This document shows positions 3,957-37,554 of a stretch of DNA of 64,000 bases, piece by piece. Numbering within the stretch: the first letter of the stretch is position 1; every line of letters starts with the position of its first letter. The notes under the pieces are model-generated. The model was not told where the DNA came from. It ran no database searches and saw only the letters and a program-made list of their open reading frames with translations. The stretch comes from Gammaproteobacteria bacterium (GTDB taxonomy: Bacteria; Pseudomonadota; Gammaproteobacteria; JAURND01), in contig JASGJS010000001.1 in NCBI GenBank assembly GCA_047601185.1, forward strand, positions 1,153,118 to 1,217,117. The letters are read 5' to 3'. The position numbers and the translations under genes are program-made.

Positions 3957-4049
3957 GCTCGAGCTTGGGAGCGCGGGCAGCTTGCCCGCTGCTTTTAACT
4001 ATTTTAAAAAGCAGCGGGCAAGCTGCCCGCGCTCCACCAAACTCGAGCC
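3957..4049. terminator. Inverted pair of family-B GC-hairpin elements (GCGGGCAGCTTGCCCGC + TGCTTTT) between yqeY and dnaG
   Basis: A perfect long palindrome, ctcgagc...gggagcgcgggcagcttgcccgctgcttttaac/gttaaaagcagcgggcaagctgcccgcgctcc...ctcgagc. Each half is a GC stem followed by a T-run, so it could act as a bidirectional intra-operon terminator or attenuator. Confidence 0.6.
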
Positions 4050-9628: not shown

Positions 9629-9704
<76 letters not shown>

Positions 9705-10962: not shown

Positions 10963-11012
10963 ACTAAATCAATAGAGGCTGTTGACATTTAGATTCTGCA
11001 AAGATGAGAATG

Positions 11013-11070
11013 GTGAGCTGTTGCCTTCTCCCCTTGTGGGAGAAGGTGCCCGATAGGGCGGATGAGGGGT
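11013..11070 (+). repeat. Family-A hairpin repeat copy
   Basis: gagctgttgccttctccccttgtgggagaaggtgcccgatagggcggatgaggggt, immediately upstream of the Sel1 gene start. Confidence 0.85.
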
Positions 11071-13074: not shown

Positions 13075-13926
13075 TTAGTGAGACATTTCTAAATTAGAGT
13101 TTTCCAGTTTAAGTTTTTCTCGATAAACACTTGGCGGTAATCCGCCCAGGCTATCGTGGGGTCTTTCATCGTTATAATCTATCCGCCAATACCAGGCCAT
13201 ATCTCTTACCTGAGAGATAGATTCAAATAAATATATATCTAAAAATTCTCGGCGAAACGAGCCGTTAAAACGTTCTGCAAATCCATTTTGACTTGGCTTG
13301 CCAGGCTGAATATGCAATAACTCAATTTCATTCGCCTCACACCAATCAATAAAAACCGCTGAAATAAGTTCTGGGCCGTTATCCAATCGCAACTGTTTCG
13401 GCAGCCCTCGTTCTTTTTTAAGCTGCTCCAAAACTCGGATAACACGCTCCGATGGCAAGGAGGTATCAACTTCTATAGCTAAACATTCTCGCGTTCCTTC
13501 ATCAATAATATTCAACGTTCGAAATCGTTTGCCGCAATATAAACTGTCATGCATAAAATCAAGCGCCCATTGATGATTTGCTATTGCCTGTATAACGAGC
13601 GGCTTAGCTATTCGCTTTGGTAATGCTCGCTTTATTCGTCGAGGTTTATTCAAACCCATCGCTTTATAAATACGATAAACTCGCTTAAAATTAAAGCCAT
13701 AACCCTTACGCCGCATGCGTTTAAAAATCTTCCAAAAACCTGCTTGCGGAGATTTTTTAAGCTCAACGTTAATAGCATCAATGACCACTGCATCCGCTAT
13801 CCGCCAATCTTTAAGTGGACGGTAGTAACTAGCCCGACTTAACCCTACTAGCCGACATGCCGTGCTGACTGGCAACCCATATTCACAAAGATCTTGAGCA
13901 GCTTCGCGCTTATCTTCAGCTACCAA
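13075..13926 (-). CDS. IS3-family transposase OrfB (DDE integrase core)
   Basis: 283 aa with a DDE/rve core (..LDNGPE..., ...ERFNGSFRREFL...). Normally expressed as an OrfAB fusion by -1 frameshifting. Confidence 0.85.
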   Translation of the reverse strand: MVAEDKREAAQDLCEYGLPVSTACRLVGLSRASYYRPLKDWRIADAVVIDAINVELKKSPQAGFWKIFKRMRRKGYGFNFKRVYRIYKAMGLNKPRRIKRALPKRIAKPLVIQAIANHQWALDFMHDSLYCGKRFRTLNIIDEGTRECLAIEVDTSLPSERVIRVLEQLKKERGLPKQLRLDNGPELISAVFIDWCEANEIELLHIQPGKPSQNGFAERFNGSFRREFLDIYLFESISQVRDMAWYWRIDYNDERPHDSLGGLPPSVYREKLKLENSNLEMSH

Positions 13927-20395: not shown

Positions 20396-20457
20396 GTGGT
20401 GAGCTGTTTCCTTCTCCCCTTGTGGGAGAAGGTGGCCGAATAGGTCGGATGAGGGGA
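20396..20457 (+). repeat. Family-A hairpin repeat copy, abutting a partial family-C terminal repeat (20352-20378)
   Basis: gagctgtttccttctccccttgtgggagaaggtggccgaataggtcggatgagggg. It is preceded by tccattcggcacccaaggaagct, which resembles the family-C TIR. Confidence 0.8.
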
Positions 20458-20546
20458 AAATCGATTTAAAACGAATATCTTCTTTGCGATTGAGACTTAT
20501 CTTCTGCTGTCAACCCCCCATTTTTAGTACAACGCATAAGTAGAAA

Positions 20547-21281
20547 TCATAGCATTTCCCTATATTGCTGTGGTGTCAAATGCCCCAGCGACTGATGGGG
20601 TCTTTCCAGGTTATATTCCTGTAACCATTGATCAGTTATGGCTTGCACGTGGTTAATATCCTTAAATAAATGCACACCTAATACTTCTTCACGATAAGTA
20701 CGATTAAATCGTTCGATATAAGCATTCTGTGCTGGTTTTCCTGGCTCAATATGACGAAGCTTTACACCATGTTTTTTGGCCCAATCAAACATTTCTTTTG
20801 AAATATTCTCAGGGCCATTATCCACCCGAAGCTGCATAGGATAACCATGCTTGATAGATATCCAATCTAAAAACGCTGTTACCCGTTTAGCAGGTAATGA
20901 TAAATTTGCTTGGATTCCCAATGCTTCCCGATTGCAGTCATCCAGTACATTCACAGTGCGAAATCGCCTACCATTTGCAAGTGCATCGCTCATGAAATCC
21001 ATCGACCAGCTTTCATTCATTTGCATTGGCCAATTCAACGCAGTTTTCTCTCTCTGTGGCAGTCGCCTTTTGGGCTTACGTCTTAAATTTAATTTTAAAT
21101 CACAATAAACCCTATAAACACGCTTATGGTTCCATTGATAACCTTGTTGTCTGAGTTTTTGAAACATCTTTTCAAACCCATAACGGCGATACCTAATGGC
21201 TAAATCCTGCAGAGCACATTTAATCTCCTCATCATTTTCTAATTTATGAGAATATCCAAAAACTGAACGACTAATGTTCAA
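20547..21281 (-). CDS. IS3-family transposase OrfB (DDE)
   Basis: 244 aa with an rve core (..LRVDNGPE.., ..YIERFNRTYREEVL..). Identical to the copy at 26378..27112. Confidence 0.85.
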   Translation of the reverse strand: MNISRSVFGYSHKLENDEEIKCALQDLAIRYRRYGFEKMFQKLRQQGYQWNHKRVYRVYCDLKLNLRRKPKRRLPQREKTALNWPMQMNESWSMDFMSDALANGRRFRTVNVLDDCNREALGIQANLSLPAKRVTAFLDWISIKHGYPMQLRVDNGPENISKEMFDWAKKHGVKLRHIEPGKPAQNAYIERFNRTYREEVLGVHLFKDINHVQAITDQWLQEYNLERPHQSLGHLTPQQYREML

Positions 21282-22467: not shown

Positions 22468-22572
22468 ATATTTCCTCTCGTAATCTACGTTTAATGGTTT
22501 AAATGTATGGCGATATTTTACCTGTAATAAAAATTAACTTTGTATAAGATTTGTACATTCAGGATATTCATC

Positions 22573-23763
22573 ATGAAGCGAAATTTCTCTAAAACAATGA
22601 TTTTGATAGCCGTTATCTTTATGGATTTGCTAGGCGGTATGGAATTCGATTTATTTGTGCCAAGCTTTCCCGAGCTACAAAGCCATTTCAACCTCAGCCC
22701 CTTTTGGGTTGAAGCCTTGTTGTCGGCAAATTTTTTGGGCTATTGTTTAAGCTTGTTTTTTGTGGGGAGTTTAAGCGATCATTATGGGCGTAAGCCGATT
22801 ATTTTATGGGGGCTTACTCTCTTTATTATAGGAAGCATTCTGTGTGTGGGTTCAACGCTTTATCCATTCTTACTAGTGGGTCGATTTTTACAAGGTTTAG
22901 GCATTGCTGCGCCCGTCATCTTAAGTTTTTTGATTATTACCGATACTTATTCTTTAAAGCAGCAGCAATTTTTACTGGCTATGCTGAATGGCGTTATGAA
23001 TATCGCGGTGGCCATAGCGCCTGTGGTGGGTAGTTATATTGCGCTGCATTTTAATTGGCGAGTTAATTTTATCGCATTGTTAGCGTTAGGCATCATAACA
23101 GGAATAACGACTTTGGCCTTCGTACCTAAAACGCAACAGCAGCACCTTGCAGAAACACCAAACTCAGGATACATGACCATTTTCCGCTCCAGGCCCTTGG
23201 TATTATTGATCATCAATTTAGTTTTTATGTTCGTACCTTATTGGATTTTTGTGGGAATGTCTCCCTTGCTTTATATTAAGGAGTTAAAAGTCAGCCTCTC
23301 AGAATTTGGGTATTATCAAGGCATACTCGCGCTTGTTTTTGCTATCGGCACCTTTTTATTTGGTTTTATCGTGAAGAGAGTGGATCAGAAAAAAACATTG
23401 AAAGTTTCAGTGGGTATCTACACGATGAGTCTCGTGCTGATTGGCTTGACGATTTTTTTCAATAGCACTAATCCCTTGTGGATTACCCTGGCTTTTCTGA
23501 CGTTTATTATTGGCCAGATTATTCCGACGACTGTGTTGTATCCACTCTGTTTGAATTTTTTACCTTCAGTCAAGGGTAGAGTCTCTGCTATAGTTCAGGG
23601 GTTACGGCTGGTACTCACAGCAATAGGTCTGCAAATCGCGGGCTACTTGTATCAAGGAACTTTTCAAAATATTGGGATTGTGATTATAAGTTTTATTTTA
23701 ATTGGCGTGGTCACGTTAGTGATGGTGATTAAAAATAATGCTTTAATGAGGGCTTTTAGGTAG
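22573..23763 (+). CDS. MFS transporter, DHA1 (Bcr/CflA-like)
   Basis: 12 predicted TM segments and the MFS motif GSLSDHYGRKPIIL. Confidence 0.8.
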   Translation: MKRNFSKTMILIAVIFMDLLGGMEFDLFVPSFPELQSHFNLSPFWVEALLSANFLGYCLSLFFVGSLSDHYGRKPIILWGLTLFIIGSILCVGSTLYPFLLVGRFLQGLGIAAPVILSFLIITDTYSLKQQQFLLAMLNGVMNIAVAIAPVVGSYIALHFNWRVNFIALLALGIITGITTLAFVPKTQQQHLAETPNSGYMTIFRSRPLVLLIINLVFMFVPYWIFVGMSPLLYIKELKVSLSEFGYYQGILALVFAIGTFLFGFIVKRVDQKKTLKVSVGIYTMSLVLIGLTIFFNSTNPLWITLAFLTFIIGQIIPTTVLYPLCLNFLPSVKGRVSAIVQGLRLVLTAIGLQIAGYLYQGTFQNIGIVIISFILIGVVTLVMVIKNNALMRAFR

Positions 23764-24378: not shown

Positions 24379-25593
24379 ATGTTCCAATCCATCAAAAAAC
24401 AATACGATTTCTTTTTTACCTTATCAGCAAGCTCAAAATTCATCATTCTAAACTCATTAATATTTTCAGTAAGTAGTTTTATGATCATGCCATTTTTGGC
24501 AATTTTTTTATCAAAAAATATGCATATGAGTGCTGCTGAGATAGGGATTTTATTAGCGATCGTAACATTTATAAGTTATGGCGGTAGCATTGTAGGTGGG
24601 ATTGTCACGCATTGGATTGGGTTGAATACAGCAATGATATTGGCGCTTATTCTACGCTCGATGGGTTTTATATTATTAGCAACAGCAACAATAGCACCCA
24701 AACTTTCTATCTTGGCAACTTCTCTCATAGCTATGGGTTCAGCCATCTATATGCCGGCCAATAAAGCTTATACCATGTTAACCGCAGCTGAAAAATTAAA
24801 GCCTTTATTTGTCTCGATTTCAAATGCTACTGTCAATATGGGCATGGCTATAGGCCCCTTGATAACGACTTTCTTTATTCATGATAATCCCATTTGGCTT
24901 TTTAATGCCATAGCGTTTTTACTCATGATGATGGCTTTATTGCATAAAATAAAACTACAAAATATAAGCCTTTCCCATAAATCCTCCATAAGAAATTTTC
25001 CAGTTAGAATGACACTTGCAAAAATTTGGTATTTTTTATTTTTTAATATCATGACTTTCTATGTCTATTTATACTTTCAGGATTTTATTGGATTGTATTT
25101 TTCGATTGTGTCTAATCTTAAATGGTTTGGCTTGATGATGTTTATTAATTTTACACTACTGTCTTTTTTACAAATGTATTTGGCCCATGTAATAGCAAGA
25201 TTAAATTATAAAATTTTAATGTCCTCATCATTTTTATTATTAGCAATAGGTGTATCAATTATCAGTATAGGAAATGTGGTAACCTTATTTTTGGGTTCTA
25301 TTATTTTGACTATTGGGTCAGCTTTTCTGTTTCTAAGGGGTGATTTAGAAATAGTGAACAAGATCCCGGAATATCCTGCAATTGCCTTTGGTATTCAAAG
25401 ACTATCAATGGGTGTCAGTGGCATATTGAGCGGAATCGTTGGCGGAAAATTATTTCAATATTATCACCTTTCGAACGCTTTAAACATCTTTTGGTTGATG
25501 GTTTCCATACAATGCCTATTTGTTTGTTTCCTGGTTATTGTTATACCTCGGCAATTTGCAAAAACTCTCTACCTCGACGTCCCGCCTACTTGA
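24379..25593 (+). CDS. MFS-type membrane transporter
   Basis: 404 aa polytopic membrane protein with ~12 TM segments and MFS-like topology. AT-rich. Confidence 0.6.
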   Translation: MFQSIKKQYDFFFTLSASSKFIILNSLIFSVSSFMIMPFLAIFLSKNMHMSAAEIGILLAIVTFISYGGSIVGGIVTHWIGLNTAMILALILRSMGFILLATATIAPKLSILATSLIAMGSAIYMPANKAYTMLTAAEKLKPLFVSISNATVNMGMAIGPLITTFFIHDNPIWLFNAIAFLLMMMALLHKIKLQNISLSHKSSIRNFPVRMTLAKIWYFLFFNIMTFYVYLYFQDFIGLYFSIVSNLKWFGLMMFINFTLLSFLQMYLAHVIARLNYKILMSSSFLLLAIGVSIISIGNVVTLFLGSIILTIGSAFLFLRGDLEIVNKIPEYPAIAFGIQRLSMGVSGILSGIVGGKLFQYYHLSNALNIFWLMVSIQCLFVCFLVIVIPRQFAKTLYLDVPPT

Positions 25594-26119: not shown

Positions 26120-26377
26120 AGATGTAAAGGCGCTTTGCAGTGGACAAAAAAGCTATTCCGAGTATCATTTGGATCTTTAGAGCCAATGATAAGGAAATAG
26201 CTTCATACATTCCAGGAGAATTTGTACAAATTAAAACTTTCCCCAAAACATTGTAGCTAATCAGATTCCAAAAACGCCTGATAACTATATATTTTGTCTA
26301 CACCTATTTGAATGCCCTCATCTTTTTTCAAGATGTAATGTCAACCCCCCATTTTTAGTACAACGCATAAGTAGAAA

Positions 26378-27112
26378 TCATAGCATTTCCCTATATTGCT
26401 GTGGTGTCAAATGCCCCAGCGACTGATGGGGTCTTTCCAGGTTATATTCCTGTAACCATTGATCAGTTATGGCTTGCACGTGGTTAATATCCTTAAATAA
26501 ATGCACACCTAATACTTCTTCACGATAAGTACGATTAAATCGTTCGATATAAGCATTCTGTGCTGGTTTTCCTGGCTCAATATGACGAAGCTTTACACCA
26601 TGTTTTTTGGCCCAATCAAACATTTCTTTTGAAATATTCTCAGGGCCATTATCCACCCGAAGCTGCATAGGATAACCATGCTTAATAGATATCCAATCTA
26701 AAAACGCTGTTACCCGTTTAGCAGGTAATGATAAATTTGCTTGGATTCCCAATGCTTCCCGATTGCAGTCATCCAGTACATTCACAGTGCGAAATCGCCT
26801 ACCATTTGCAAGTGCATCGCTCATGAAATCCATCGACCAGCTTTCATTCATTTGCATTGGCCAATTCAACGCAGTTTTCTCTCTCTGTGGCAGTCGCCTT
26901 TTGGGCTTACGTCTTAAATTTAATTTTAAATCACAATAAACCCTATAAACACGCTTATGGTTCCATTGATAACCTTGTTGTCTGAGTTTTTGAAACATCT
27001 TTTCAAACCCATAACGGCGATACCTAATGGCTAAATCCTGCAGAGCACATTTAATCTCCTCATCATTTTCTAATTTATGAGAATATCCAAAAACTGAACG
27101 ACTAATGTTCAA
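26378..27112 (-). CDS. IS3-family transposase OrfB (DDE)
   Basis: Protein-identical to the 20547..21281 copy. Confidence 0.85.
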   Translation of the reverse strand: MNISRSVFGYSHKLENDEEIKCALQDLAIRYRRYGFEKMFQKLRQQGYQWNHKRVYRVYCDLKLNLRRKPKRRLPQREKTALNWPMQMNESWSMDFMSDALANGRRFRTVNVLDDCNREALGIQANLSLPAKRVTAFLDWISIKHGYPMQLRVDNGPENISKEMFDWAKKHGVKLRHIEPGKPAQNAYIERFNRTYREEVLGVHLFKDINHVQAITDQWLQEYNLERPHQSLGHLTPQQYREML

Positions 27113-31476: not shown

Positions 31477-32154
31477 TTAAACTTGCGACAGGCACTTCAT
31501 GTTACAGGAATTACCCATTTGTTGATTTTGACTTATAATGCGATTTAAATGCTGCAGTCCCACCATAATTCTTTTTACTCTGGAGTGAATAATCTCATCA
31601 CTTACCATGTCATAAGGGTGATTTTGAGCGCTAGCACCCATTTTCAACATAACGGGTGACGCAATCTGTACGATTTCAGCAAGTTCATTGAATCTGATAT
31701 AGCCACCTTTGGCAGCATATACATCCGTTGGCACATCTAAAATGAGTCCAGGGCATATTCGGCGCATCTCCTGTAAAGTGGCTAAGCTGGCATCATGAAT
31801 GGTTGTGATACTATCGGCACCGTTTTCTTGTAGTATTTTGGCAATCATCGGGTTGGCTGCCATACAGTGAGAAGATGCTTTAAATTTTAGTGTAGATGGC
31901 AATACTCCTTCGGTGCGCATTTTTGATAAAATTCTAAGTACCCCAATATCATAAACAATAATGCCGCGACAACCTAGCTCTGCTAGGCGTATGGCTTCTT
32001 CTATTGAATCAGAAATTGCTTTGTTATTATTAATGCGGCGACCTTGTTCAAGGCCAAACTCACTTCGATAAAAAGAGCTTTTAACATCATATTCTGGTCT
32101 TGGACTGAGTGCAAAAAGCATACCAATTTTCTTTTCAAAACAGAGCTGTAGCAT
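31477..32154 (-). CDS. Hypothetical protein (possibly TIM-barrel-like); ORF 32230..32418 may be its frameshifted N-terminal part
   Basis: 225 aa with no confident family. A 62-aa ORF lies 75 nt upstream on the same strand. Confidence 0.4.
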   Translation of the reverse strand: MLQLCFEKKIGMLFALSPRPEYDVKSSFYRSEFGLEQGRRINNNKAISDSIEEAIRLAELGCRGIIVYDIGVLRILSKMRTEGVLPSTLKFKASSHCMAANPMIAKILQENGADSITTIHDASLATLQEMRRICPGLILDVPTDVYAAKGGYIRFNELAEIVQIASPVMLKMGASAQNHPYDMVSDEIIHSRVKRIMVGLQHLNRIISQNQQMGNSCNMKCLSQV

Positions 32155-32530
32155 TTCCTTAATTTCTATATCTGATAATAAAAACGAACCTTTTGTTTCG
32201 TTGAAACGATCACAACGAATATTGTAATTTTATAAGTAATAAATTGTTTTTTCTAGAGTATTCATTGAATTAATGACTGGAATTTCAATTCCATAACTGC
32301 TCCCATCTTCAAATCTTTCAGAAGATGAAATCATCTGAATATCATCACTGTAGGGAAAGTGGTTGCTCATTAGCCAGGATTCTGCGCGCGCAGAAGATTT
32401 AATAATATCGAGTTTCATTTTTTGTTCCTCATGAATTTATTATGATATGACACTGTATTTCAAGGTCGCATACAGATCCATATTAATCTTTCGCGACGTA
32501 CTAATAAATACCGTAATTTTTGTTATCTAC

Positions 32531-32805
32531 CAACCGCCATGAGCTTTCCACAGCCGATAGCCGTAGGGAGTGAATTTGAGGAAAAAGATTTGCTGGTAAG
32601 GCTGGATTGACCAGCAGCAGCGCAGCAGCGCGTCGAGTAAAGAAAAAACGCAGAAAAGTGTTTTACGCAGAAGCGTGATGTTGTAAGCTTTTATAGCCAC
32701 GGTGACCTCTTGCTCAGGTTGTTAGTGGAAGTACCTGCTGGATGCTTCTAACCATTCAGTAGGTGCGTCTATTATTAAGCGGTGCTTAAAGAAAAGCAAC
32801 TCATT
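32531..32805. repeat. ~275-bp direct repeat, copy 1 (pairs with 36881..37160, ~90% identical)
   Basis: Long stretches are shared: ...ctttccacag.cgatag...ttgaccagc.gcagcgcag.agcgcgtcg.gtaaagaaaaaacgcagaaaa.tgttttacgcagaagcgtgatgttgtaagcttt.atagccacggtgacctcttgctcaggttgttagtggaagta.ctgctggatgcttc.aacca. Confidence 0.85.
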
Positions 32806-33228
32806 TTTGATATTTGTTTTAAATGGGTTTTGATCTAACCAAAAAAAGGGGTGTTTTAGCGTGAAAAATTATGGATATTCAATGTTCTAATGATTGCCGC
32901 TCGGATGAATGATAGTATGGTTTAAGATATAACACGTGATTTTATCGAAAATCAGTTGTTTTTATCAAATCAACACCTTGCTATACAGGGTGCCATCGGT
33001 TCTGATCCCGGAAAAATATAATTTGGTCATTAATCCATTGCATACAAAGTTTTATACAATTTTGAAAACGGTAAAAAACCTAGGTCAGCATGTGGCTCCA
33101 ACTCGCTGATTGTGAGAGCACTGCGTGTAGGTTTAGAGAGTGCACCCATGAGATCCCACTATATACCGATTGCAGTTCAAGATGCGAACAATGGTGAATT
33201 TAATATTTGAAAATTATCATTAATTCTT

Positions 33229-34305
33229 TCACGCAAGATAGTTTTTTTCCTGGCTATAGTTTAAAAAATTTTTTATTAGAAGATCAGAATTTAAGAGAAT
33301 AGAAGCTAATATTATAGATAAAATTCCACAACCGCTTATCAATAAGCTAGAAACATCAGACGTAAAGTACCGACCAAAGAATACAGCTAAACCGGCACCA
33401 ATACCAACAGCAGTTTCCTTAACAAGAAGAAATCCTGCTTTGGATCCATAGGCATCTAAGTAGCTTGCAAAGCATTCAATAATTGACAGAATAATCGTCC
33501 ATAAAGCTGCTCCAATCATAGTATAGGCATGAAAGTATTGAGGGAATGCAATAAGTATCATGCCAATTAACATCAAATAAAAAGTAATTTTAACAGAATT
33601 ATTGGGATGGAATCTATCTAAAAGGCGTATGATTGGAATCTGTAGCAAAATAACTGTTCCACTGTTGATAAATATCATTATTCCATACCAATTCGGTAAA
33701 TTATGTTTTGTTGACAAAATATATTGTGGTAATACTGATAGTACGCCAAAAAATTTTATTCCTATAGCAATGCCGACAAATAACCATCCGAACCATCTTT
33801 TTTTATCGAAGCTTTTAGGGATAGATAATACAATGTCTTTTTTTATAGAATTTTTTATGGAAAACAAGATTATAAAAAATAATACACAAGCACTTATAAA
33901 GAAAAAAACATCTTTAGAATTAATTGAGAGTAATAAAACAATTCCAGATGCTAAACTTCCTGCATTCAAAGCTATTTTATTATGAGCAGCTCCAGTAGTT
34001 GTTTCTGCAGCTTCTGATTTTATCAGATATCCTGAAACACTAAATCCAATGCCCACTAATATTGAACCAATGGTCATTTGATAATTACCATTTAAGCAAA
34101 ATAATAATGTGCCAATTGTGGAAATAATCAATGCTATGGTAATTGCATATTTCCCAAAAAGTCTAGAGAATAAAGGTGATGTTATGAGGAAAAATCTGTA
34201 TCCGATAGCAAGCAATGTGTTACTTAGTGGAGTTAGCCATATATTTGCTTTTCCTAAAAAGGCAAAGAGACAGGTTGCTGTGACAAATCTAATAAAGAAA
34301 ATCAT
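33229..34305 (-). CDS. MFS-type membrane transporter (putative exporter)
   Basis: 358 aa with ~10-12 TM segments. Very AT-rich coding sequence. Confidence 0.6.
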   Translation of the reverse strand: MIFFIRFVTATCLFAFLGKANIWLTPLSNTLLAIGYRFFLITSPLFSRLFGKYAITIALIISTIGTLLFCLNGNYQMTIGSILVGIGFSVSGYLIKSEAAETTTGAAHNKIALNAGSLASGIVLLLSINSKDVFFFISACVLFFIILFSIKNSIKKDIVLSIPKSFDKKRWFGWLFVGIAIGIKFFGVLSVLPQYILSTKHNLPNWYGIMIFINSGTVILLQIPIIRLLDRFHPNNSVKITFYLMLIGMILIAFPQYFHAYTMIGAALWTIILSIIECFASYLDAYGSKAGFLLVKETAVGIGAGLAVFFGRYFTSDVSSLLISGCGILSIILASILLNSDLLIKNFLNYSQEKNYLA

Positions 34306-34309
34306 TAAT

Positions 34310-35578
34310 TTATCCTATGTGGCATGGAGGGAGGATCTTTATACCGTGTTTTGATAAAAAAATTTCTGCAGATAGAAGGGAATATACCAAAGAATCATAG
34401 CTGTCTGACTTGGCTTTAATATATCCAATAAAGTCTGAGTTATCACGTGGGCAATCAGTAATTTTATCTCCAATTTTTTTAGTCCAAGTAAATTCAATAA
34501 AATCCCCATGTATCATTGAAGAAAGTTCTGTTAATTTTGATACAGTAAATCTTTCAATAACGCCGTCTTGCGGCGCAGTGATAAAACGTATGCCAGCAAA
34601 ACATTTCATTTTCAGTTCTTTAGGAGAACTATCAATTTTACCAATTGCCCATTCAATCCATAGCGTCCACGGGTCGAAGTCCTCAAATGCATATGATCCT
34701 AAATCCCAAATTTGACATCCACCAGGGCGAAGATTTGGCTCTACAGCGGAAACTTCATTTCTATTTTCTAACAAAAATATCTCATTGTGACAGGCGCATC
34801 CATTATAACCAGATACTTCAGCCATAAACCTGGCTCCAGATATCAGTAAATCATGTTCAATTTTTGGCAGTGGTGCTGGAATAATATGCTGTGGCTCTGC
34901 TCTATATTGAGTTGTTGTGGTCGTTTTTTCTGTTAACCAAGAATAACCGGCTACGTGATCCCAACTATATTCTTTTGAGTTCTCAATGAGTCTTTCTGCA
35001 GAAATTCCACCTGCAAGATATTTCTTTATTTGATGCCAAGCACGTTCGCAATCTTCATATTTTTTTATGGCAATGCAGCCACGACTATTTCCTTCTTTCA
35101 TCGGTTTTATGAAAACGCCAGAGTTAAATTCTCTAAAGACAGATTGTAGCTCCGCTAAAGAGCTTATTTTTTTCGAATCTACCTTTATGTATCCATCTGG
35201 CTTTGGTAAAATTGTTTCTCTTTGTCTAAAGTCATATTTATTCAAGGCGGAACCAATTGTTTTTGAATTTGCTCCTGGTAATCCAAAATATTCTGATAAC
35301 AGTGCGCCAATTTGAGTGCCTTGGTCGGAAAATGGTAATACGCCAATAACATTTAAATTAAATTTTTTACAGAAATTTATAATAATTTCTAGATTTTTAA
35401 AATCTTTATCCAAATTAACATCTATAGAAAAATCAACAGATTTTTTGTCATTATTGTCAATGCCATCCTTACATAAAACTGTAATGGCATTAATAGAAGA
35501 ACTTGCTTTTTCTCTAATTTTTATTACATCATTAATCCTGGTGTTGTTATATCCAACAACTAGAATGCAATCTTTCAT
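34310..35578 (-). CDS. ATP-grasp domain ligase (carboxylate-amine/peptide ligase-like)
   Basis: 422 aa. GVFIKPMKEGNSRGCIAIKKYED is an ATP-grasp phosphate-binding region. Confidence 0.6.
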   Translation of the reverse strand: MKDCILVVGYNNTRINDVIKIREKASSSINAITVLCKDGIDNNDKKSVDFSIDVNLDKDFKNLEIIINFCKKFNLNVIGVLPFSDQGTQIGALLSEYFGLPGANSKTIGSALNKYDFRQRETILPKPDGYIKVDSKKISSLAELQSVFREFNSGVFIKPMKEGNSRGCIAIKKYEDCERAWHQIKKYLAGGISAERLIENSKEYSWDHVAGYSWLTEKTTTTTQYRAEPQHIIPAPLPKIEHDLLISGARFMAEVSGYNGCACHNEIFLLENRNEVSAVEPNLRPGGCQIWDLGSYAFEDFDPWTLWIEWAIGKIDSSPKELKMKCFAGIRFITAPQDGVIERFTVSKLTELSSMIHGDFIEFTWTKKIGDKITDCPRDNSDFIGYIKAKSDSYDSLVYSLLSAEIFLSKHGIKILPPCHIG

Positions 35579-35626
35579 AGTTACCCTCTTTTATGGTTGA
35601 AATTTTTGAATCATAGGTTTGTATTG

Positions 35627-36658
35627 TTAATAATTCGTATTTTTTCTCTGACCTTTGCTGCGGTATAACAGCCTGGGTGTGTTAAATAAATTTGAATTAG
35701 AAGCAAACTTCATTGCGATATTTTTTTCAATTTTCATTTCTTCTCGTGCATGGAGAACTTTGTAGTTGGCGATTATTAAAAAAGTTCCTGTATCTGTTTG
35801 AGAAGTTTCAAAAGGACAATTTTTTAAATTATCAGTCATTTTGTTAAGCAGTATCTGATGTTGAGAATCTGAAGACAGCATTCTAGTACCTGTAATGTCA
35901 TCTATCCTGAAGTCAAGAAAAAATCTAAATCCATATAGTTCTGAGTACTCTACAATATTTCTTTCTCTTTCTATTATTATATCTACATTTTTTCCAGACC
36001 TAAACTTTGCTTTAATATTTTTTAATTGTGACAATTCATTATCAGTAAAATTTCTGAGAATATTTTTTGGAAAAAAACATTTTGTTGCTGTTCTTGTCTT
36101 GTCTCTGCATACAGTTAATGAAAGATAATCTACATTTAATTTCTCATATAAATCGTCAGCGTGTGGCATTATTTCTCCGTAACCACTTCCCCAATTTTTA
36201 TATTTTTCAGCTGATGACTTTAAATATAATGTTTTATGCTCTTCATAATCATATTTAATGTCTAAAATATTAAATAAATCTGAAAGAGATTCATGTACAA
36301 GGAGCGACAGTTTTGGGGAGTCACTTTCGAAAATATTTTTGATGCAAACTCCAGCGATATTACTTTTATGGAAGCCAACAATACTAAAGTAATCAATGTG
36401 TTCTTTTTTTAAATTATCTAAAAATATGTTTATCAGCTTAAATTTTAGATTTTGAAAAGATAAATTGGAGTTTAATTTTCTTATCCACCAATTTTCAATA
36501 ATGTCAGAAATATAAGAAAAATCTATTGTAATGAATTTTTCTTGATTTATCTCTTTTTTTAGTAATTTAGCAAATTGCTGTTCAGTCATTTTATTTTGTG
36601 AGAATTCTAATTTCATGGTTTTTCTCGGAGAAATTTCGTTTTTATTTCCTATTTGCAA
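35627..36658 (-). CDS. Fe(II)/2-oxoglutarate-dependent dioxygenase, TauD/TfdA (CAS-like) family
   Basis: HxD motif GEIMPHADDLY and the distal TGTFLIIANYKVLHAREE (equivalent of DNRxxxHxR). Length fits TauD-like enzymes. Confidence 0.6.
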   Translation of the reverse strand: MQIGNKNEISPRKTMKLEFSQNKMTEQQFAKLLKKEINQEKFITIDFSYISDIIENWWIRKLNSNLSFQNLKFKLINIFLDNLKKEHIDYFSIVGFHKSNIAGVCIKNIFESDSPKLSLLVHESLSDLFNILDIKYDYEEHKTLYLKSSAEKYKNWGSGYGEIMPHADDLYEKLNVDYLSLTVCRDKTRTATKCFFPKNILRNFTDNELSQLKNIKAKFRSGKNVDIIIERERNIVEYSELYGFRFFLDFRIDDITGTRMLSSDSQHQILLNKMTDNLKNCPFETSQTDTGTFLIIANYKVLHAREEMKIEKNIAMKFASNSNLFNTPRLLYRSKGQRKNTNY

Positions 36659-36880
36659 AATTGATACGCAATGATACCTTCAAGCGTTTTATTGAATTAA
36701 ATCGTAAAATTAGTTTGATAGGCGGAAGGAAGGTAAGTTGGTAACCAACTCTGACATTCTTATCGCTAAGGACCTGAGAAGGACACTAAAGAAAGCACGT
36801 CAAGCGTTACCCTAAACTTATCTTTTTGCCGCGATCTGTCATCTTAATTTAGAGTATGAACTAACCATGGAATGCCCCAC

Positions 36881-37160
36881 AACCAACCACTATGAACTTT
36901 CCACAGTCGATAGTCATAGGAAAAGAATTTGAGGAAAGAAATTTTCTGATAAGGCTGAATTGACCAGCGGCAGCGCAGTAGCGCGTCGGGTAAAGAAAAA
37001 ACGCAGAAAAATGTTTTACGCAGAAGCGTGATGTTGTAAGCTTTCATAGCCACGGTGACCTCTTGCTCAGGTTGTTAGTGGAAGTATCTGCTGGATGCTT
37101 CGAACCATCCAGTAGGTGCTCTTATTATTAAAGGATACTTAAAAAAAATCAACTATTTTT
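36881..37160. repeat. ~280-bp direct repeat, copy 2 (pairs with 32531..32805)
   Basis: See copy 1. The two copies bracket the AT-rich 4.1-kb three-gene cassette. Confidence 0.85.
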
Positions 37161-37493
37161 TGACAGTTTCTTTTTCAACTTTTTCTCTCTGCATTATTTC
37201 CAGAGGTCTTTATCGGAATGAAACCTAGGTTTTTTATTCACAGGATTTTTTTTAGCTAGCCCTTTCCAGGAAGAAAAGTTTTTCGAACTGATTTAAGGTA
37301 AGAAACGCTCTAAATTTCTTTTCACCGCAGTTCGCATGGCTTTAACCTTACTCTATAAATGACATTCATTTATAAATTTTTGCAAATAATGTACTAAAGT
37401 CGAAGTCAAAATAATATTAATTTTAGACATAAATCCTCCAAAATATGATATATTATACGTTAATATCCATTTATCAATAGACTGACCTCCTTC

Positions 37494-37554
37494 ACCCCTC
37501 ATCCGCCCTATCGGGCACCTTCTCCCACAAGGGGAGAAGGAAACAGCTCGCCAC
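37494..37554 (-). repeat. Family-A hairpin repeat copy (reverse orientation)
   Basis: cccctcatccgccctatcgggcaccttctcccacaaggggagaaggaaacagctcgcc, upstream of cphA. Confidence 0.85.

What the first reader, a model, noticed from the sequence alone, without database searches (positions are those of the whole stretch)
32531..37160. AT-rich three-gene cassette (MFS exporter, ATP-grasp ligase, Fe/2OG dioxygenase) bracketed by ~275-bp direct repeats
Genes 33229..36658 are far more AT-rich than the flanks (roughly 30% against ~43-45% GC) and form a compact co-directional unit. It comprises an ATP-grasp carboxylate-amine ligase, a TauD/TfdA-like Fe(II)/2-oxoglutarate oxygenase (HxD and VLHAR motifs) and an MFS pump. 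That is the minimal logic of a ligase-made, hydroxylated, exported small metabolite, as with amino-acid-ligase antimetabolites. The unit is delimited by two ~90% identical direct repeats of about 275 bp (32531..32805 and 36881..37160). Each repeat lies at the 5' side of a minus-strand gene block. I cannot place this gene trio plus repeat in any described system.
Basis: partly seen in the sequence, partly recalled or inferred. Interest (0 to 1): 0.8.

Follow-up and report, generated by a model that had tools for sequence, protein, structure and literature searches.

The report
Dipeptide-type gene trio between antisense-RNA repeats
A horizontally acquired three-gene operon (amino-acid hydroxylase, amino-acid ligase, exporter) that probably makes a small modified dipeptide sits between two copies of a 292-bp unit; each copy looks like a small antisense-RNA-controlled gene heading an operon, not the end of a mobile element.

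Summary
Two 292-bp direct repeats (32529-32820 and 36882-37173, 87% identical) bracket three co-directional minus-strand genes with 31% GC.

The gene calls are right:
- The 329-aa protein has no Pfam hit but folds confidently (pLDDT 92.7) as a clavaminate-synthase-like Fe(II)/2-oxoglutarate amino-acid hydroxylase. Best structural matches are KDO1, VioC, OrfP and CAS.
- The 422-aa protein is an L-amino-acid ligase (profile match to BacD, 1e-13).
- The 358-aa protein is a weak MFS-like transporter.

The trio recurs without the repeat in unrelated contigs, so it is a conserved, uncharacterised module. Its logic is already known from bacilysin, the Hil operon, tabtoxin and dapdiamide.

- Each repeat carries a minus-strand promoter, a strong ribosome-binding site (SD) and a 57/69-aa ORF.
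- Each also carries a structured, terminator-ended plus-strand RNA. It resembles PtaRNA1 (35-37 bits, below the threshold of 47) and overlaps the SD and start codon exactly as in canonical ptaRNA1 type I toxin-antitoxin loci.
- The ORF is not a ptaRNA1 toxin and has no homologues.
- No recombinase is present.
- The low GC extends over about 28 kb of IS-rich DNA, not just the cassette.

No close relatives of this MAG exist, so an empty-site test was impossible. Interest is moderate.

The parts
35627..36616 (-). Fe(II)/2-oxoglutarate oxygenase of the clavaminate-synthase-like (TauD superfamily) fold. It is probably a hydroxylase of a free amino acid. 329 aa from the ATG annotated in GenBank as QM752_06010; the mechanical ORF from a TTG start reaches 36658.
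   Evidence: - Pfam gave no hit at E<=0.01.
- NCBIfam gave only a weak GntD beta-hydroxylase match around the HxD motif.
- AlphaFold2 with 42 homologues: pLDDT 92.7, pTM 0.92.
- Foldseek against the PDB: KDO1, VioC, OrfP, NapI, AsnO, CAS and CarC at E about 1e-10, TM 0.60-0.65.
- Invariant H152, D154, H289, R291, R315 and R319 in 42 homologues.
34310..35578 (-). ATP-grasp L-amino-acid ligase (LAL), 422 aa. GenBank MFT3742205, annotated 'biotin carboxylase'.
   Evidence: - A profile of 46 homologues matches BacD (1.1e-13), LAL BL00235 (2e-9) and then D-Ala-D-Ala ligases.
- Weak Pfam LAL_C2 match and weak NCBIfam BacD match.
- Invariant K158, E266, E280, N282, R284 and G287.
33229..34305 (-). 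Polytopic membrane protein, MFS-like and a probable exporter, 358 aa (QM752_06000).
   Evidence: - Pfam MFS_1 E = 1.7e-5, 24.3 bits, below the cut-off of 33.4.
- About 10-11 hydrophobic segments.
- Orthologues sit in the same position after the ligase in L001 (66% identity), L002 (51%) and L020 (47%).
36882..37173 (.). Repeat copy 2 (292 bp), directly upstream of the oxygenase-ligase-transporter operon.
32529..32820 (.). Repeat copy 1 (292 bp). It lies downstream of the cassette and directly upstream of the next minus-strand block (62-aa ORF, U32-like, methyltransferase, two MFS).
37047..37123 (+). Predicted PtaRNA1-like antisense RNA, copy 2. Hairpin 1 has a CCUCUUGCUC loop complementary to the SD. 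Hairpin 2 is an intrinsic terminator followed by a U-rich tail.
   Evidence: - Rfam RF01811: 36.8 bits (threshold 47), full-length model match.
- Plus-strand terminator at 37083-37120.
- Plus-strand fold -32.1 kcal/mol, z = -3.85; the opposite strand gives z = -1.5.
32694..32770 (+). Predicted PtaRNA1-like antisense RNA, copy 1.
   Evidence: - Rfam RF01811: 35.1 bits.
- Terminator at 32731-32766.
- Fold z = -3.90 on the plus strand against -0.42 on the minus strand.
- The three substitutions between the copies in the terminator hairpin are either pair-preserving (C-G to U-G, G-U to G-C) or fall in the loop (read).
36844..37053 (-). Small ORF copy 2 (69 aa, GTG start). AAGAGG lies 5 nt upstream. 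The first 7 nt overlap the antisense RNA.
   Evidence: Not annotated in GenBank, because there is no protein accession between MFT3742206 and MFT3742207.
32527..32700 (-). Small ORF copy 1 (57 aa, GTG start; GenBank QM752_05995), with the same SD and the same overlap. The repeat homology ends at its stop codon.
   Evidence: -.
- No homologue among 1.84 billion representative proteins other than itself.
- No PF12703 match.
37124..37152 (-). Sigma-70-like promoter (TTGATT-17-AATAAT) for the small-ORF transcript of copy 2. The equivalent sequence in copy 1 (TTGCTT...AATAAT, about 32771-32799) is weaker.
   Evidence: sequence read

Best explanation
There are two separate things here.

(1) THE OPERON. 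The three genes are a horizontally acquired, widely conserved operon.
- Shown: the folds and families of the three proteins, and conservation of the trio elsewhere.
- Inferred: a clavaminate-synthase-like Fe(II)/2OG oxygenase hydroxylates a free L-amino acid. An L-amino-acid ligase of the BacD type then joins it, using ATP, to a second amino acid. An MFS-like transporter exports the product. This is the logic of a minimal dipeptide antimetabolite pathway.

(2) THE REPEATS. The 292-bp repeats are not element termini. They are two paralogous copies of a compact antisense-RNA module of the PtaRNA1 type, which resembles a type I toxin-antitoxin locus.
- The minus strand carries a promoter, a roughly 60-nt 5'UTR, a strong SD and a 57/69-codon ORF.
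- The plus strand carries a roughly 77-nt two-hairpin RNA ending in an intrinsic terminator. It is fully complementary to that 5'UTR, the SD and the first 7 nt of the ORF. Pairing would block translation or trigger cleavage.
- No terminator follows the small ORF, and each copy sits directly upstream of a co-directional operon. Transcription from the module probably reads into the operon. The antisense RNA may therefore also gate the downstream genes.
- The SD-pairing hairpin is 100% identical in the two copies, so either RNA could act on both.

Whether the small basic, aromatic-rich peptide is a toxin or just a leader ORF is unresolved; I put it at roughly even odds. The whole arrangement lies at the right edge of a roughly 28-kb low-GC, IS-rich variable region. 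That region starts at a tRNA gene (9629-9701) and ends next to cphA.
For: GENES
- AF2 model pLDDT 92.7. Foldseek best matches are free-amino-acid hydroxylases: KDO1, VioC, OrfP, AsnO, CmnC and CAS.
- H152-x-D154...H289 and Arg residues are invariant in 42 homologues.
- The ligase profile matches BacD at 1e-13 and LAL BL00235 at 2e-9.
- The same order (oxygenase, ligase, MFS-like) occurs in L001 and L002-4, and in decayed form in Legionella drozanskii L020.
- About 20 further contigs carry both a ligase and an oxygenase homologue. This is inferred from matching contig lengths. They include Marivirga (Bacteroidota).
- A Coxiellaceae MAG adds an MR_MLE (dipeptide-epimerase-type) gene.
- The Pseudomonas oxygenase homologue sits with the AzlCD amino-acid exporter and no ligase. 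This fits action on a free amino acid.

REPEATS
- Rfam PtaRNA1 matches full-length on the plus strand of both copies, and nowhere else in the window.
- Plus-strand terminators are predicted in both copies.
- Structure is strand-specific: z = -3.9 on the plus strand, -0.4 and -1.5 on the minus strand.
- AAGAGG-N5-GTG heads an ORF that stays open in both copies.
- In canonical ptaRNA1 loci on IncP plasmids, the RNA match begins 7 nt inside the toxin CDS (601 against CDS 374-607). The offset here is the same: 32694 against 32700, and 37047 against 37053.
- The central 160 nt (RNA, its upstream region and the ORF 5' half) is about 95% identical, against about 82% at the edges.
- No minus-strand terminator lies between the small ORFs and the downstream genes.
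Against: - PtaRNA1 scores (35-37 bits) are below Rfam's gathering score of 47. Obviously spurious miRNA hits in the same scan have similar E-values.
- The offset agreement is partly built into the model, because its first 7 nt are the complement of a start codon region.
- The small ORF does not match PF12703 or NCBIfam ptaRNA1 toxin models, whereas canonical toxins score 1e-33 to 1e-40.
- The small ORF has no homologue anywhere.
- It shows no clear purifying selection between the copies: 11 nonsynonymous against 6 synonymous codon differences, spread 6/5/8 over the three codon positions.
- The two C-termini differ.
- The consensus scan found no plus-strand sigma-70 promoter for the RNA.
- A PtaRNA1-like RNA at the same score lies antisense to a Rha-family phage gene. 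The RNA type therefore does not imply a toxin.
- Substrates, product and expression are all untested. The MFS assignment is below the Pfam threshold.
Confidence: 0.6

Rival explanations
1. MOBILE ISLET. The repeats are the footprint of insertion. A circular DNA carrying one copy of the 292-bp segment plus the cassette recombined with a resident copy (Campbell-type single crossover), leaving the cassette between direct repeats. Recombination between the repeats can excise it again. This is compatible with the repeats also being antisense modules.
For: - The direct orientation brackets exactly the three foreign-looking genes.
- The cassette GC (31%) differs from that of the repeats (40-45%), suggesting different histories.
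- The cassette occurs in variable or mobile contexts elsewhere: phage-repressor-like genes in L001 and L021, rve and AbiEii fragments and effector genes in L020.
- The surrounding 28 kb is IS-rich.
Against: - The repeats differ by 13%, so any such event is old, or the partners were already diverged.
- There is no integrase, transposase or target-site duplication at the borders.
- The left neighbours outside the repeats are equally AT-rich.
- Cassette homologues elsewhere lack the repeat.
- No related genome exists to show an empty site.
Confidence: 0.2
2. PURE REGULATORY LEADER. The repeat is a duplicated promoter-leader cassette. The small ORF is an untranslated or merely translated leader, and there is no toxin. 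The antisense RNA serves only to co-regulate the two downstream operons.
For: - Both copies sit immediately upstream of, and co-directional with, an operon, with no terminator in between.
- The ORF shows weak or no purifying selection, and its C-termini differ.
- It has no protein homologues.
- A PtaRNA1-like RNA also controls a non-toxin gene (Rha) in phage contigs.
Against: - A 57-69-codon frame is kept open in both copies behind a near-perfect SD.
- Gaps of 108-228 nt, and separate promoter-like sites, lie before the downstream genes.
- Cassette orthologues elsewhere function without such a leader.
Confidence: 0.3
3. INERT REMNANTS. The repeats are decaying relics of a plasmid- or ICE-derived type I toxin-antitoxin locus, duplicated by chance, with no current function.
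For: - dN/dS is about 0.7 between the copies, and the ORF is truncated or replaced at its 3' end at the homology boundary.
- The setting is IS-rich and pseudogene-prone.
Against: - The SD, the start codon and both RNA hairpins are intact in both copies despite 13% overall divergence. Substitutions in the terminator stem preserve pairing.
- The central 160 nt is much better conserved than the edges.
Confidence: 0.15

Closest known systems
Bacilysin BacD (YwfE) L-amino-acid ligase with BacE MFS exporter (Bacillus subtilis)
   Same: The ATP-grasp ligase family gives the best solved-structure match (BacD, 1e-13). The ligase is followed by a transporter gene. The logic is a non-proteinogenic amino acid masked as a dipeptide and exported, as summarised in PMC3684760.
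   Different: Bacilysin's warhead comes from prephenate via BacABCFG, not from an Fe/2OG hydroxylase. Sequence identity to BacD is very low. Here there are only three genes.
Hil operon of Pantoea ananatis (HilA/HilB dioxygenases, HilC, HilD ATP-grasp ligase, HilE MFS; PMC3684760)
   Same: It combines free-amino-acid Fe/2OG hydroxylase(s), an ATP-dependent carboxylate-amine ligase and an MFS exporter in one operon, and was proposed to make a dipeptide antibiotic.
   Different: HilA and HilB belong to PF13640 and PF10014, not to the clavaminate-synthase-like fold found here. The Hil operon also has a reductase and regulators. Its product is also unproven.
[quoted passage not shown]
   Same: The same three enzyme or transporter classes occur together in proven antimetabolite pathways.
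   Different: Those clusters are much larger (beta-lactam synthetase, DAP-pathway genes, NRPS carrier protein). DdaC acts on a carrier-tethered substrate. No sequence comparison with those proteins was made here.
VioC / KDO1 / AsnO / OrfP family of free L-amino-acid hydroxylases (clavaminate-synthase-like Fe(II)/2OG oxygenases)
   Same: Same fold (TM 0.60-0.65) and an HxD/E...H triad.
   Different: Only 10-15% sequence identity. The protein is not recognised by Pfam TauD (PF02668) or by any NCBIfam model. A helix is inserted between the distal His strand and the last strand. The substrate is unknown.
PtaRNA1 / XCV2162 (ptaRNA1_toxin, PF12703) type I toxin-antitoxin system of IncP plasmids and ICEs (Rfam RF01811; described computationally only, PMC5367252)
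   Same: It has the same two-hairpin antisense RNA, with a CCUCU loop opposite the SD and a terminator. The 7-nt overlap with the start of a small ORF on the other strand is identical. About 70% of positions are identical across hairpin 1.
   Different: The RNA scores below Rfam's threshold. The small ORF is unrelated to PF12703: it is basic (+6/+7) and aromatic-rich, whereas the canonical toxin is acidic. The locus is chromosomal, present in two diverged copies, each heading an operon with no terminator, and has no neighbouring plasmid genes.

Membership tests
Fe(II)/2-oxoglutarate oxygenase, clavaminate-synthase-like / TauD superfamily | Double-stranded beta-helix (jelly-roll) fold of the CSL/TauD type | tested here: met
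   AF2 pLDDT 92.7. Foldseek gave 258 PDB matches at E<=1e-3, and all of the 50 best rows listed are Fe/2OG oxygenases of this class.
Fe(II)/2-oxoglutarate oxygenase, clavaminate-synthase-like / TauD superfamily | 2-His-1-carboxylate facial triad (HxD/E ... H) | tested here: met
   H152 and H289 are invariant and D154 nearly invariant in 42 homologues. Their spatial arrangement in the model was not measured.
Fe(II)/2-oxoglutarate oxygenase, clavaminate-synthase-like / TauD superfamily | Arg that binds the 2OG C5 carboxylate, on the strand after the distal His | tested here: inconclusive
   R291, R315 and R319 are invariant. Which one contacts 2OG was not determined.
Fe(II)/2-oxoglutarate oxygenase, clavaminate-synthase-like / TauD superfamily | Match to the Pfam TauD model (PF02668) | tested here: not met
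   No Pfam family at E<=0.01. Only a 19-bit NCBIfam GntD hit and no PDB sequence-profile hit. Membership rests on fold, not sequence.
L-amino-acid ligase (ATP-grasp, BacD/YwfE type) | Sequence-profile relationship to characterised LALs | tested here: met
   The profile of 46 homologues matches BacD at 1.1e-13 and BL00235 at 2e-9, ahead of the D-Ala-D-Ala ligases.
L-amino-acid ligase (ATP-grasp, BacD/YwfE type) | ATP-grasp nucleotide and Mg2+ ligands (Lys; the E...E-x-N motif) | tested here: met
   K158, E266, E280, N282 and R284 are invariant in the family alignment. Assigning these residues to roles is inference from the ATP-grasp literature.
L-amino-acid ligase (ATP-grasp, BacD/YwfE type) | Formation of an alpha-dipeptide from free amino acids | not testable with these tools
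   Needs an enzyme assay.
Major facilitator superfamily | Match to MFS_1 above the gathering score, with 12 (or 14) TM helices | tested here: inconclusive
   24.3 bits against a cut-off of 33.4. About 10-11 hydrophobic segments in 358 aa.
PtaRNA1 (RF01811) antisense RNA | Covariance-model score at or above the gathering score (47 bits) | tested here: not met
   36.8 and 35.1 bits.
PtaRNA1 (RF01811) antisense RNA | Two-hairpin architecture, the second hairpin a terminator, located antisense to the SD and start of a short ORF | tested here: met
   The same 7-nt overlap occurs in canonical loci L022 and L023.
ptaRNA1 / XCV2162 type I toxin-antitoxin system | Toxin belongs to PF12703 (ptaRNA1_toxin) | tested here: not met
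   No hit at E<=10 for either small ORF. Canonical toxins score 8e-40 and 2e-33 in the same call. No alignable similarity beyond the first three residues.
Type I toxin-antitoxin system (generic) | The small protein is toxic and the antisense RNA neutralises it | not testable with these tools
   Needs expression experiments. Indirect indicators are mixed: a strong SD and an ORF open in both copies, but dN/dS of about 0.7.
Mobile element or genomic islet bounded by direct repeats | Dedicated recombinase or transposase, with near-identical repeats or a target-site duplication | tested here: not met
   No such gene lies between or adjacent to the repeats. The repeats are 87% identical.
Mobile element or genomic islet bounded by direct repeats | Empty site with a single repeat copy in related genomes | not testable with these tools
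   SecD, DnaG and CphA of this MAG are singletons at 90% identity. The best CphA homologue is 59% identical, with no upstream synteny.

The most novel reading that the evidence does not exclude
A PtaRNA1-type antisense module, otherwise known only as a plasmid or ICE type I toxin-antitoxin candidate, has been recruited on a chromosome as a portable, duplicated 'head' for horizontally acquired operons. It carries a new, unrelated small ORF. The two near-identical antisense RNAs cross-regulate both operons, one of which makes an unknown hydroxylated dipeptide. At the same time, the two copies provide the homology by which the biosynthetic cassette can be looped out or captured.
Probability: 0.15. 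Interest if true: 0.6.

Novelty: new variant of a known kind. Interest (0 to 1): 0.4.

Why it matters
- The oxygenase-ligase(-transporter) module is conserved in dozens of contigs from Legionellales-like bacteria, Bacteroidota and others, yet is annotated as 'hypothetical protein' and 'biotin carboxylase'. Recognising it as a minimal amino-acid-hydroxylase plus L-amino-acid-ligase pathway gives a short, testable route to a new dipeptide-type metabolite. It also gives a name to an oxygenase family that sequence models miss.
- The repeats extend the PtaRNA1 antisense-RNA architecture to a new host lineage and to a different partner ORF. Together with the phage Rha case, this suggests that the RNA scaffold is a reusable translational switch rather than the antitoxin of a single toxin family.
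- Neither point overturns current understanding.

Tried and rejected
- REPEAT ELSEWHERE. blastn ('distant') of the repeat against 72,556 plasmids found nothing. A scan for the exact 19-mer of the SD-pairing hairpin gave one hit in 185,579 species genomes and six in JGI metagenomes. None has flanking similarity or a PtaRNA1 match. They are chance matches, at least one of them at the ribosome-binding site of an unrelated gene.
- SMALL ORF. A profile HMM of the two small ORFs searched against 1.84 billion representative proteins found only the ORF itself. An exact-sequence contig look-up found nothing.
- RIBOSWITCH OR STRUCTURED LEADER ON THE mRNA STRAND. Rejected as the main signal. No Rfam family matched, and the minus strand of the hairpin region folds no better than shuffles (z = -0.4 and -1.5), against -3.9 for the plus strand.
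- LONG-RANGE mRNA STRUCTURE. Folds predict an SD/anti-SD pairing and a 3' hairpin with two compensatory pairs. This is only marginal: p is about 0.05 for a structure derived from copy 1, and not significant for one derived from copy 2. The two single-sequence folds also disagree.
- EMPTY-SITE OR SYNTENY TEST. Impossible, because this MAG has no close relatives.
- LINK TO THE ADJACENT CYANOPHYCIN GENES. Rejected. The cassette is divergently oriented, and in the other loci with gene tables (L001-L004, L020, L021) no cyanophycin gene lies next to it.
- SEQUENCE-ONLY IDENTIFICATION OF THE OXYGENASE. Failed with Pfam, NCBIfam and PDB profiles. Structure prediction was needed.

Full report
OBSERVATION

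The two direct repeats are real. 32529-32820 and 36882-37173 align without gaps over 292 nt at 87% identity (37 mismatches, blastn E = 2e-102). They are the only copies in the window. Between them lie three co-directional minus-strand ORFs: 35627-36616 (329 aa from the annotated ATG; the mechanical ORF reaches 36658), 34310-35578 (422 aa) and 33229-34305 (358 aa).

The cassette is 31.3% GC, with GC3 of only 0.22-0.24. The contrast holds on the right side only, where cphA is 42.8% GC. The minus-strand genes to the left of repeat 1 (two MFS genes and a methyltransferase) are 32-34% GC. The whole 9.7-37.5 kb stretch averages 36.8%, against 44-47% outside it. That stretch begins at a tRNA gene (9629-9701). 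It holds three IS3-type transposase genes, several MFS genes, two-component genes and AAA/DUF4143 genes. The cassette is therefore the right-hand end of a large variable region, not an isolated AT-rich islet. The repeats themselves are the GC-richest part of that region (40-45%).

SOURCE

The ligase, the oxygenase, the small ORF of repeat 1, CphA, SecD and DnaG all match single-member protein clusters from one NCBI MAG. It is labelled 'Gammaproteobacteria bacterium', has a 1.71-Mb contig and uses locus tags QM752_. The best CphA homologue is only 59% identical, and Legionella proteins follow at 53-57%. This is a deep Legionellales-like lineage with no sequenced close relative. A search for an empty site could not be made. 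The nearest cphA locus (L024) shares only cphA, the S51 peptidase and the asparaginase.

THE THREE GENES

Oxygenase.
- Pfam gave nothing for the first gene.
- NCBIfam gave only a 19-bit match to the GntD beta-hydroxylase around the HxD motif.
- A PDB sequence-profile search gave nothing.
- An AlphaFold2 model built on 42 homologues is confident (pLDDT 92.7, pTM 0.92).
- Foldseek places it firmly among clavaminate-synthase-like Fe(II)/2OG oxygenases. The best matches are KDO1 lysine hydroxylase, VioC, OrfP, NapI, AsnO, CmnC, CAS, CarC, BBOX and CsiD, at E about 1e-10 and TM 0.60-0.65. Most of these act on free amino acids.
- H152-x-D154, H289 and several arginines are invariant.

Ligase.
- On its own the second protein hits BacD only weakly.
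- As a 46-member profile it matches BacD at 1.1e-13 and the LAL BL00235 at 2e-9, ahead of the D-Ala-D-Ala ligases.
- The ATP-grasp Lys and E...E-x-N residues are invariant.

Transporter.
- The third protein is a polytopic membrane protein with a sub-threshold MFS_1 match.

CONSERVATION OF THE MODULE

- The same order (oxygenase, ligase, MFS-like) occurs in a JGI contig (L001) and in ENA contigs (L002-L004). Transporter identity there is 66% and 51%.
- A decayed copy sits beside F-box/ankyrin effector and rve fragments in Legionella drozanskii (L020).
- A Coxiellaceae MAG has the oxygenase and a 422-aa gene in the ligase position, followed by an MR_MLE-type (dipeptide-epimerase-like) gene (L021).
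This implies co-occurrence of the pair across several phyla, including Marivirga (inference).
- In Pseudomonas, the oxygenase homologue stands without a ligase next to AzlCD, an amino-acid exporter. This fits action on a free amino acid.
- None of these loci contains anything similar to the 292-bp repeat.

The gene logic is that of known amino-acid-ligase antimetabolite pathways:
- bacilysin BacD/BacE;
- the Hil operon of Pantoea (dioxygenases, ATP-grasp ligase and MFS; PMC3684760);
- tabtoxin TblC/TblF/TblR (PMC3927611);
- dapdiamide DdaC/DdaF/DdaI (PMC3535389).

The three-gene version with this oxygenase family is, as far as I could find, uncharacterised.

THE REPEATS

Read on the minus strand, each copy contains four elements in order:
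- a promoter-like site (TTGATT-17-AATAAT at 37152-37124; weaker in copy 1);
- a roughly 60-nt leader;
- the sequence GAGCAAGAGGTCACC, with AAGAGG followed 5 nt later by a GTG start;
- an ORF that stays open for 57 codons (copy 1) or 69 codons (copy 2).

On the plus strand, an Rfam scan without the gathering cut-off gives a full-length match to PtaRNA1 (RF01811) in both copies. PtaRNA1 is the antisense RNA of the XCV2162 type I toxin-antitoxin candidate. The matches are at 32694-32770 (35.1 bits) and 37047-37123 (36.8 bits), and there are none elsewhere in the window.

Supporting evidence for a plus-strand RNA:
- The second hairpin is detected independently as an intrinsic terminator on the plus strand in both copies.
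- The 82-nt plus-strand segment folds far better than shuffled controls (z = -3.9). The opposite strand does not (z = -0.4 and -1.5).
- The three substitutions between the copies in the terminator hairpin are C-G to U-G, G-U to G-C and one loop change. The two stem changes would be mismatches on the other strand.
- The loop of hairpin 1 (CCUCUUGCUC) is the complement of the SD.

COMPARISON WITH CANONICAL ptaRNA1 LOCI

I fetched canonical ptaRNA1 loci from IncP plasmids of Xanthomonas cucurbitae and Marinobacter. There the RNA match starts 7 nt inside the annotated toxin CDS, at 601 against CDS 374-607. The offset in the window is the same: 32694 against 32700, and 37047 against 37053. About 70% of positions in hairpin 1 are identical.

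CAVEATS ON THE REPEAT ASSIGNMENT

- The scores are below Rfam's threshold of 47. Clearly spurious miRNA-family hits to palindromic repeats have similar E-values in the same scan.
- The offset agreement is partly built into the model.
- The small ORF is not a ptaRNA1 toxin. Canonical toxins score 8e-40 and 2e-33 against PF12703 in the same call in which the window ORFs score nothing. The proteins do not align beyond 'MAM'.
- The window peptides are basic (+6/+7) and aromatic-rich with a borderline hydrophobic stretch. The canonical toxins are acidic.
- A profile of the two ORFs finds nothing among 1.84 billion representative proteins except copy 1 itself.
- Between the copies there are 11 nonsynonymous and 6 synonymous codon differences, with no third-position bias.
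- The homology ends exactly at the stop codon of copy 1, while copy 2 runs on for 12 codons.
- IMG/VR phage contigs (L010, L012, L013) carry a PtaRNA1-like RNA at the same score, antisense to the SD and start of a 233-aa Rha-family gene. This RNA scaffold therefore occurs with different partner ORFs and does not by itself imply a toxin.

WHAT THE REPEATS ARE NOT

- They are not element ends in any recognisable sense. There is no recombinase, transposase or target duplication, and they are 13% diverged.
- They are not a genome-wide repeat, as far as the window shows.
- I could not find them in plasmids, in 185,579 species genomes or in JGI metagenomes. This rests on a blastn search and on exact 19-mer scans of the most conserved hairpin. 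Those scans returned only chance hits, at least one at the ribosome-binding site of an unrelated gene.

MOST LIKELY MECHANISM

Each repeat is a compact sense/antisense unit of the PtaRNA1 type. The plus-strand RNA pairs with the 5'UTR, the SD and the start of the small ORF, and represses it.

No minus-strand terminator is predicted between the small ORFs and the next genes. Both copies sit directly upstream of co-directional operons: the oxygenase-ligase-transporter operon, and the block holding the 62-aa ORF, the U32-like gene, the methyltransferase and the MFS genes. The unit probably also feeds transcription into those operons, so the RNA may gate them. The SD-pairing hairpin is identical in both copies, so cross-regulation is possible.

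Whether the peptide is toxic (a true type I toxin-antitoxin system) or a leader is open. A Campbell-type origin of the bracket, in which a cassette with one copy recombined with a resident copy, is compatible with the data but untestable here.

Weak hints of mRNA-strand structure are marginal and are recorded as unexplained. They comprise SD pairing with an internal CCUC and a 3' hairpin with two compensatory pairs. The p-value is about 0.05 for a structure derived from copy 1, and is not significant for one derived from copy 2.

VERDICT

The finding is real and the gene calls are right. The cassette is a new, minimal member of a known kind of pathway. The repeats are best read as a diverged variant of a known antisense-RNA module, not as cassette borders. 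Interest is moderate (0.4).

Noticed in passing
window 20508-20807 and 26339-26638 (ORFs 20547-21281 and 26378-27112): Two 100% identical stretches (at least 300 nt) lie in direct orientation 5.8 kb apart. Each carries an identical 244-aa IS3-type transposase (rve/rve_3). They bracket two MFS genes (22540-23763 and 24379-25593) and two unknown ORFs, a layout resembling a composite transposon. A third, different IS3-type gene lies at 13075-13926.
   Followed up: partly
window 11011-11070, 20397-20456, 45004-45063, 60761-60820; opposite orientation 37494-37552, 55716-55774, 59387-59445: A roughly 60-nt REP/MITE-like palindromic element (…CCTTCTCCCCTTGTGGGAGAAGG…GGGCGGATGAGGGG) is scattered in both orientations. 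One copy lies in the intergenic region between repeat 2 and cphA.
   Followed up: no
window 3964-4035, 52863-52934, 53830-53901, 62982-63053 (and 40-nt cores at 4007, 45969, 52416, 53687, 63025): A second family of GC-rich palindromic repeats (CTTGGGAGCGCGGGC.GCT.GCCCGCTGCTTTT…) gives spurious sub-threshold hits to miRNA families in Rfam.
   Followed up: no
window 52484-52913: Three tandem copies of a 140-nt unit, 91-95% identical.
   Followed up: no
window 9629-9701 to about 37600: The low-GC (about 37%), IS-rich region of about 28 kb starts immediately after a tRNA gene. The first ORF after it is a short, 138-aa ParA/CbiA-like ORF, possibly truncated. The region ends at the cphA promoter region. 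It looks like a tRNA-associated genomic island or an accretion of several.
   Followed up: partly
window 31477-32154 and 32230-32418: The first genes after repeat 1 are a 62-aa ORF with no family and a 225-aa protein with only a sub-threshold, partial Peptidase_U32 match (profile positions 10-82 of 233). This may be a fragmented or decayed gene.
   Followed up: no
L010 4046-4124, L012 8335-8413, L013 about 2742-2820 (IMG/VR phage contigs): A PtaRNA1-like RNA (37 bits, below threshold) lies antisense to the SD and start codon of a 233-aa Rha-family phage regulatory gene, with the same 7-nt overlap. This suggests an antisense switch on a phage regulator that Rfam's PtaRNA1 family does not cover.
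   Followed up: partly
L005/L006 3374-10469 (Klebsiella aerogenes): A more distant homologue of the ligase (40% identity) sits in a different, larger cluster. That cluster has two further ATP-grasp genes, a 2Fe-2S ferredoxin, a haem-oxygenase-like (Haem_oxygenas_2) protein and an MFS gene, next to a GntR/aminotransferase regulator. It is probably another uncharacterised small-peptide pathway.
   Followed up: no
L007 8001-10065 (Pseudomonas glycinae): The oxygenase family occurs in many Pseudomonas genomes (about 50% identity) without a ligase. It lies directly upstream of azlC/azlD and next to betaine-aldehyde and choline dehydrogenase genes. There it is also AT-richer than its flanks (50% against 61% GC).
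   Followed up: partly
window 32527-32575 and 36880-36928, minus strand: The 3' end of the small ORF can form a hairpin in which two G-C pairs of copy 1 are A-U pairs in copy 2. Simulation gives p of about 0.05 with a structure derived from copy 1, but the copy-2 fold differs. The repeat homology ends right after this hairpin.
   Followed up: yes
window 49387-49515 and 62328-62451: Sub-threshold Rfam matches to WsnRNA46 (a Wolbachia sRNA; 34-36 bits against a threshold of 65), on both strands at the first site. They are probably structured repeats.
   Followed up: no
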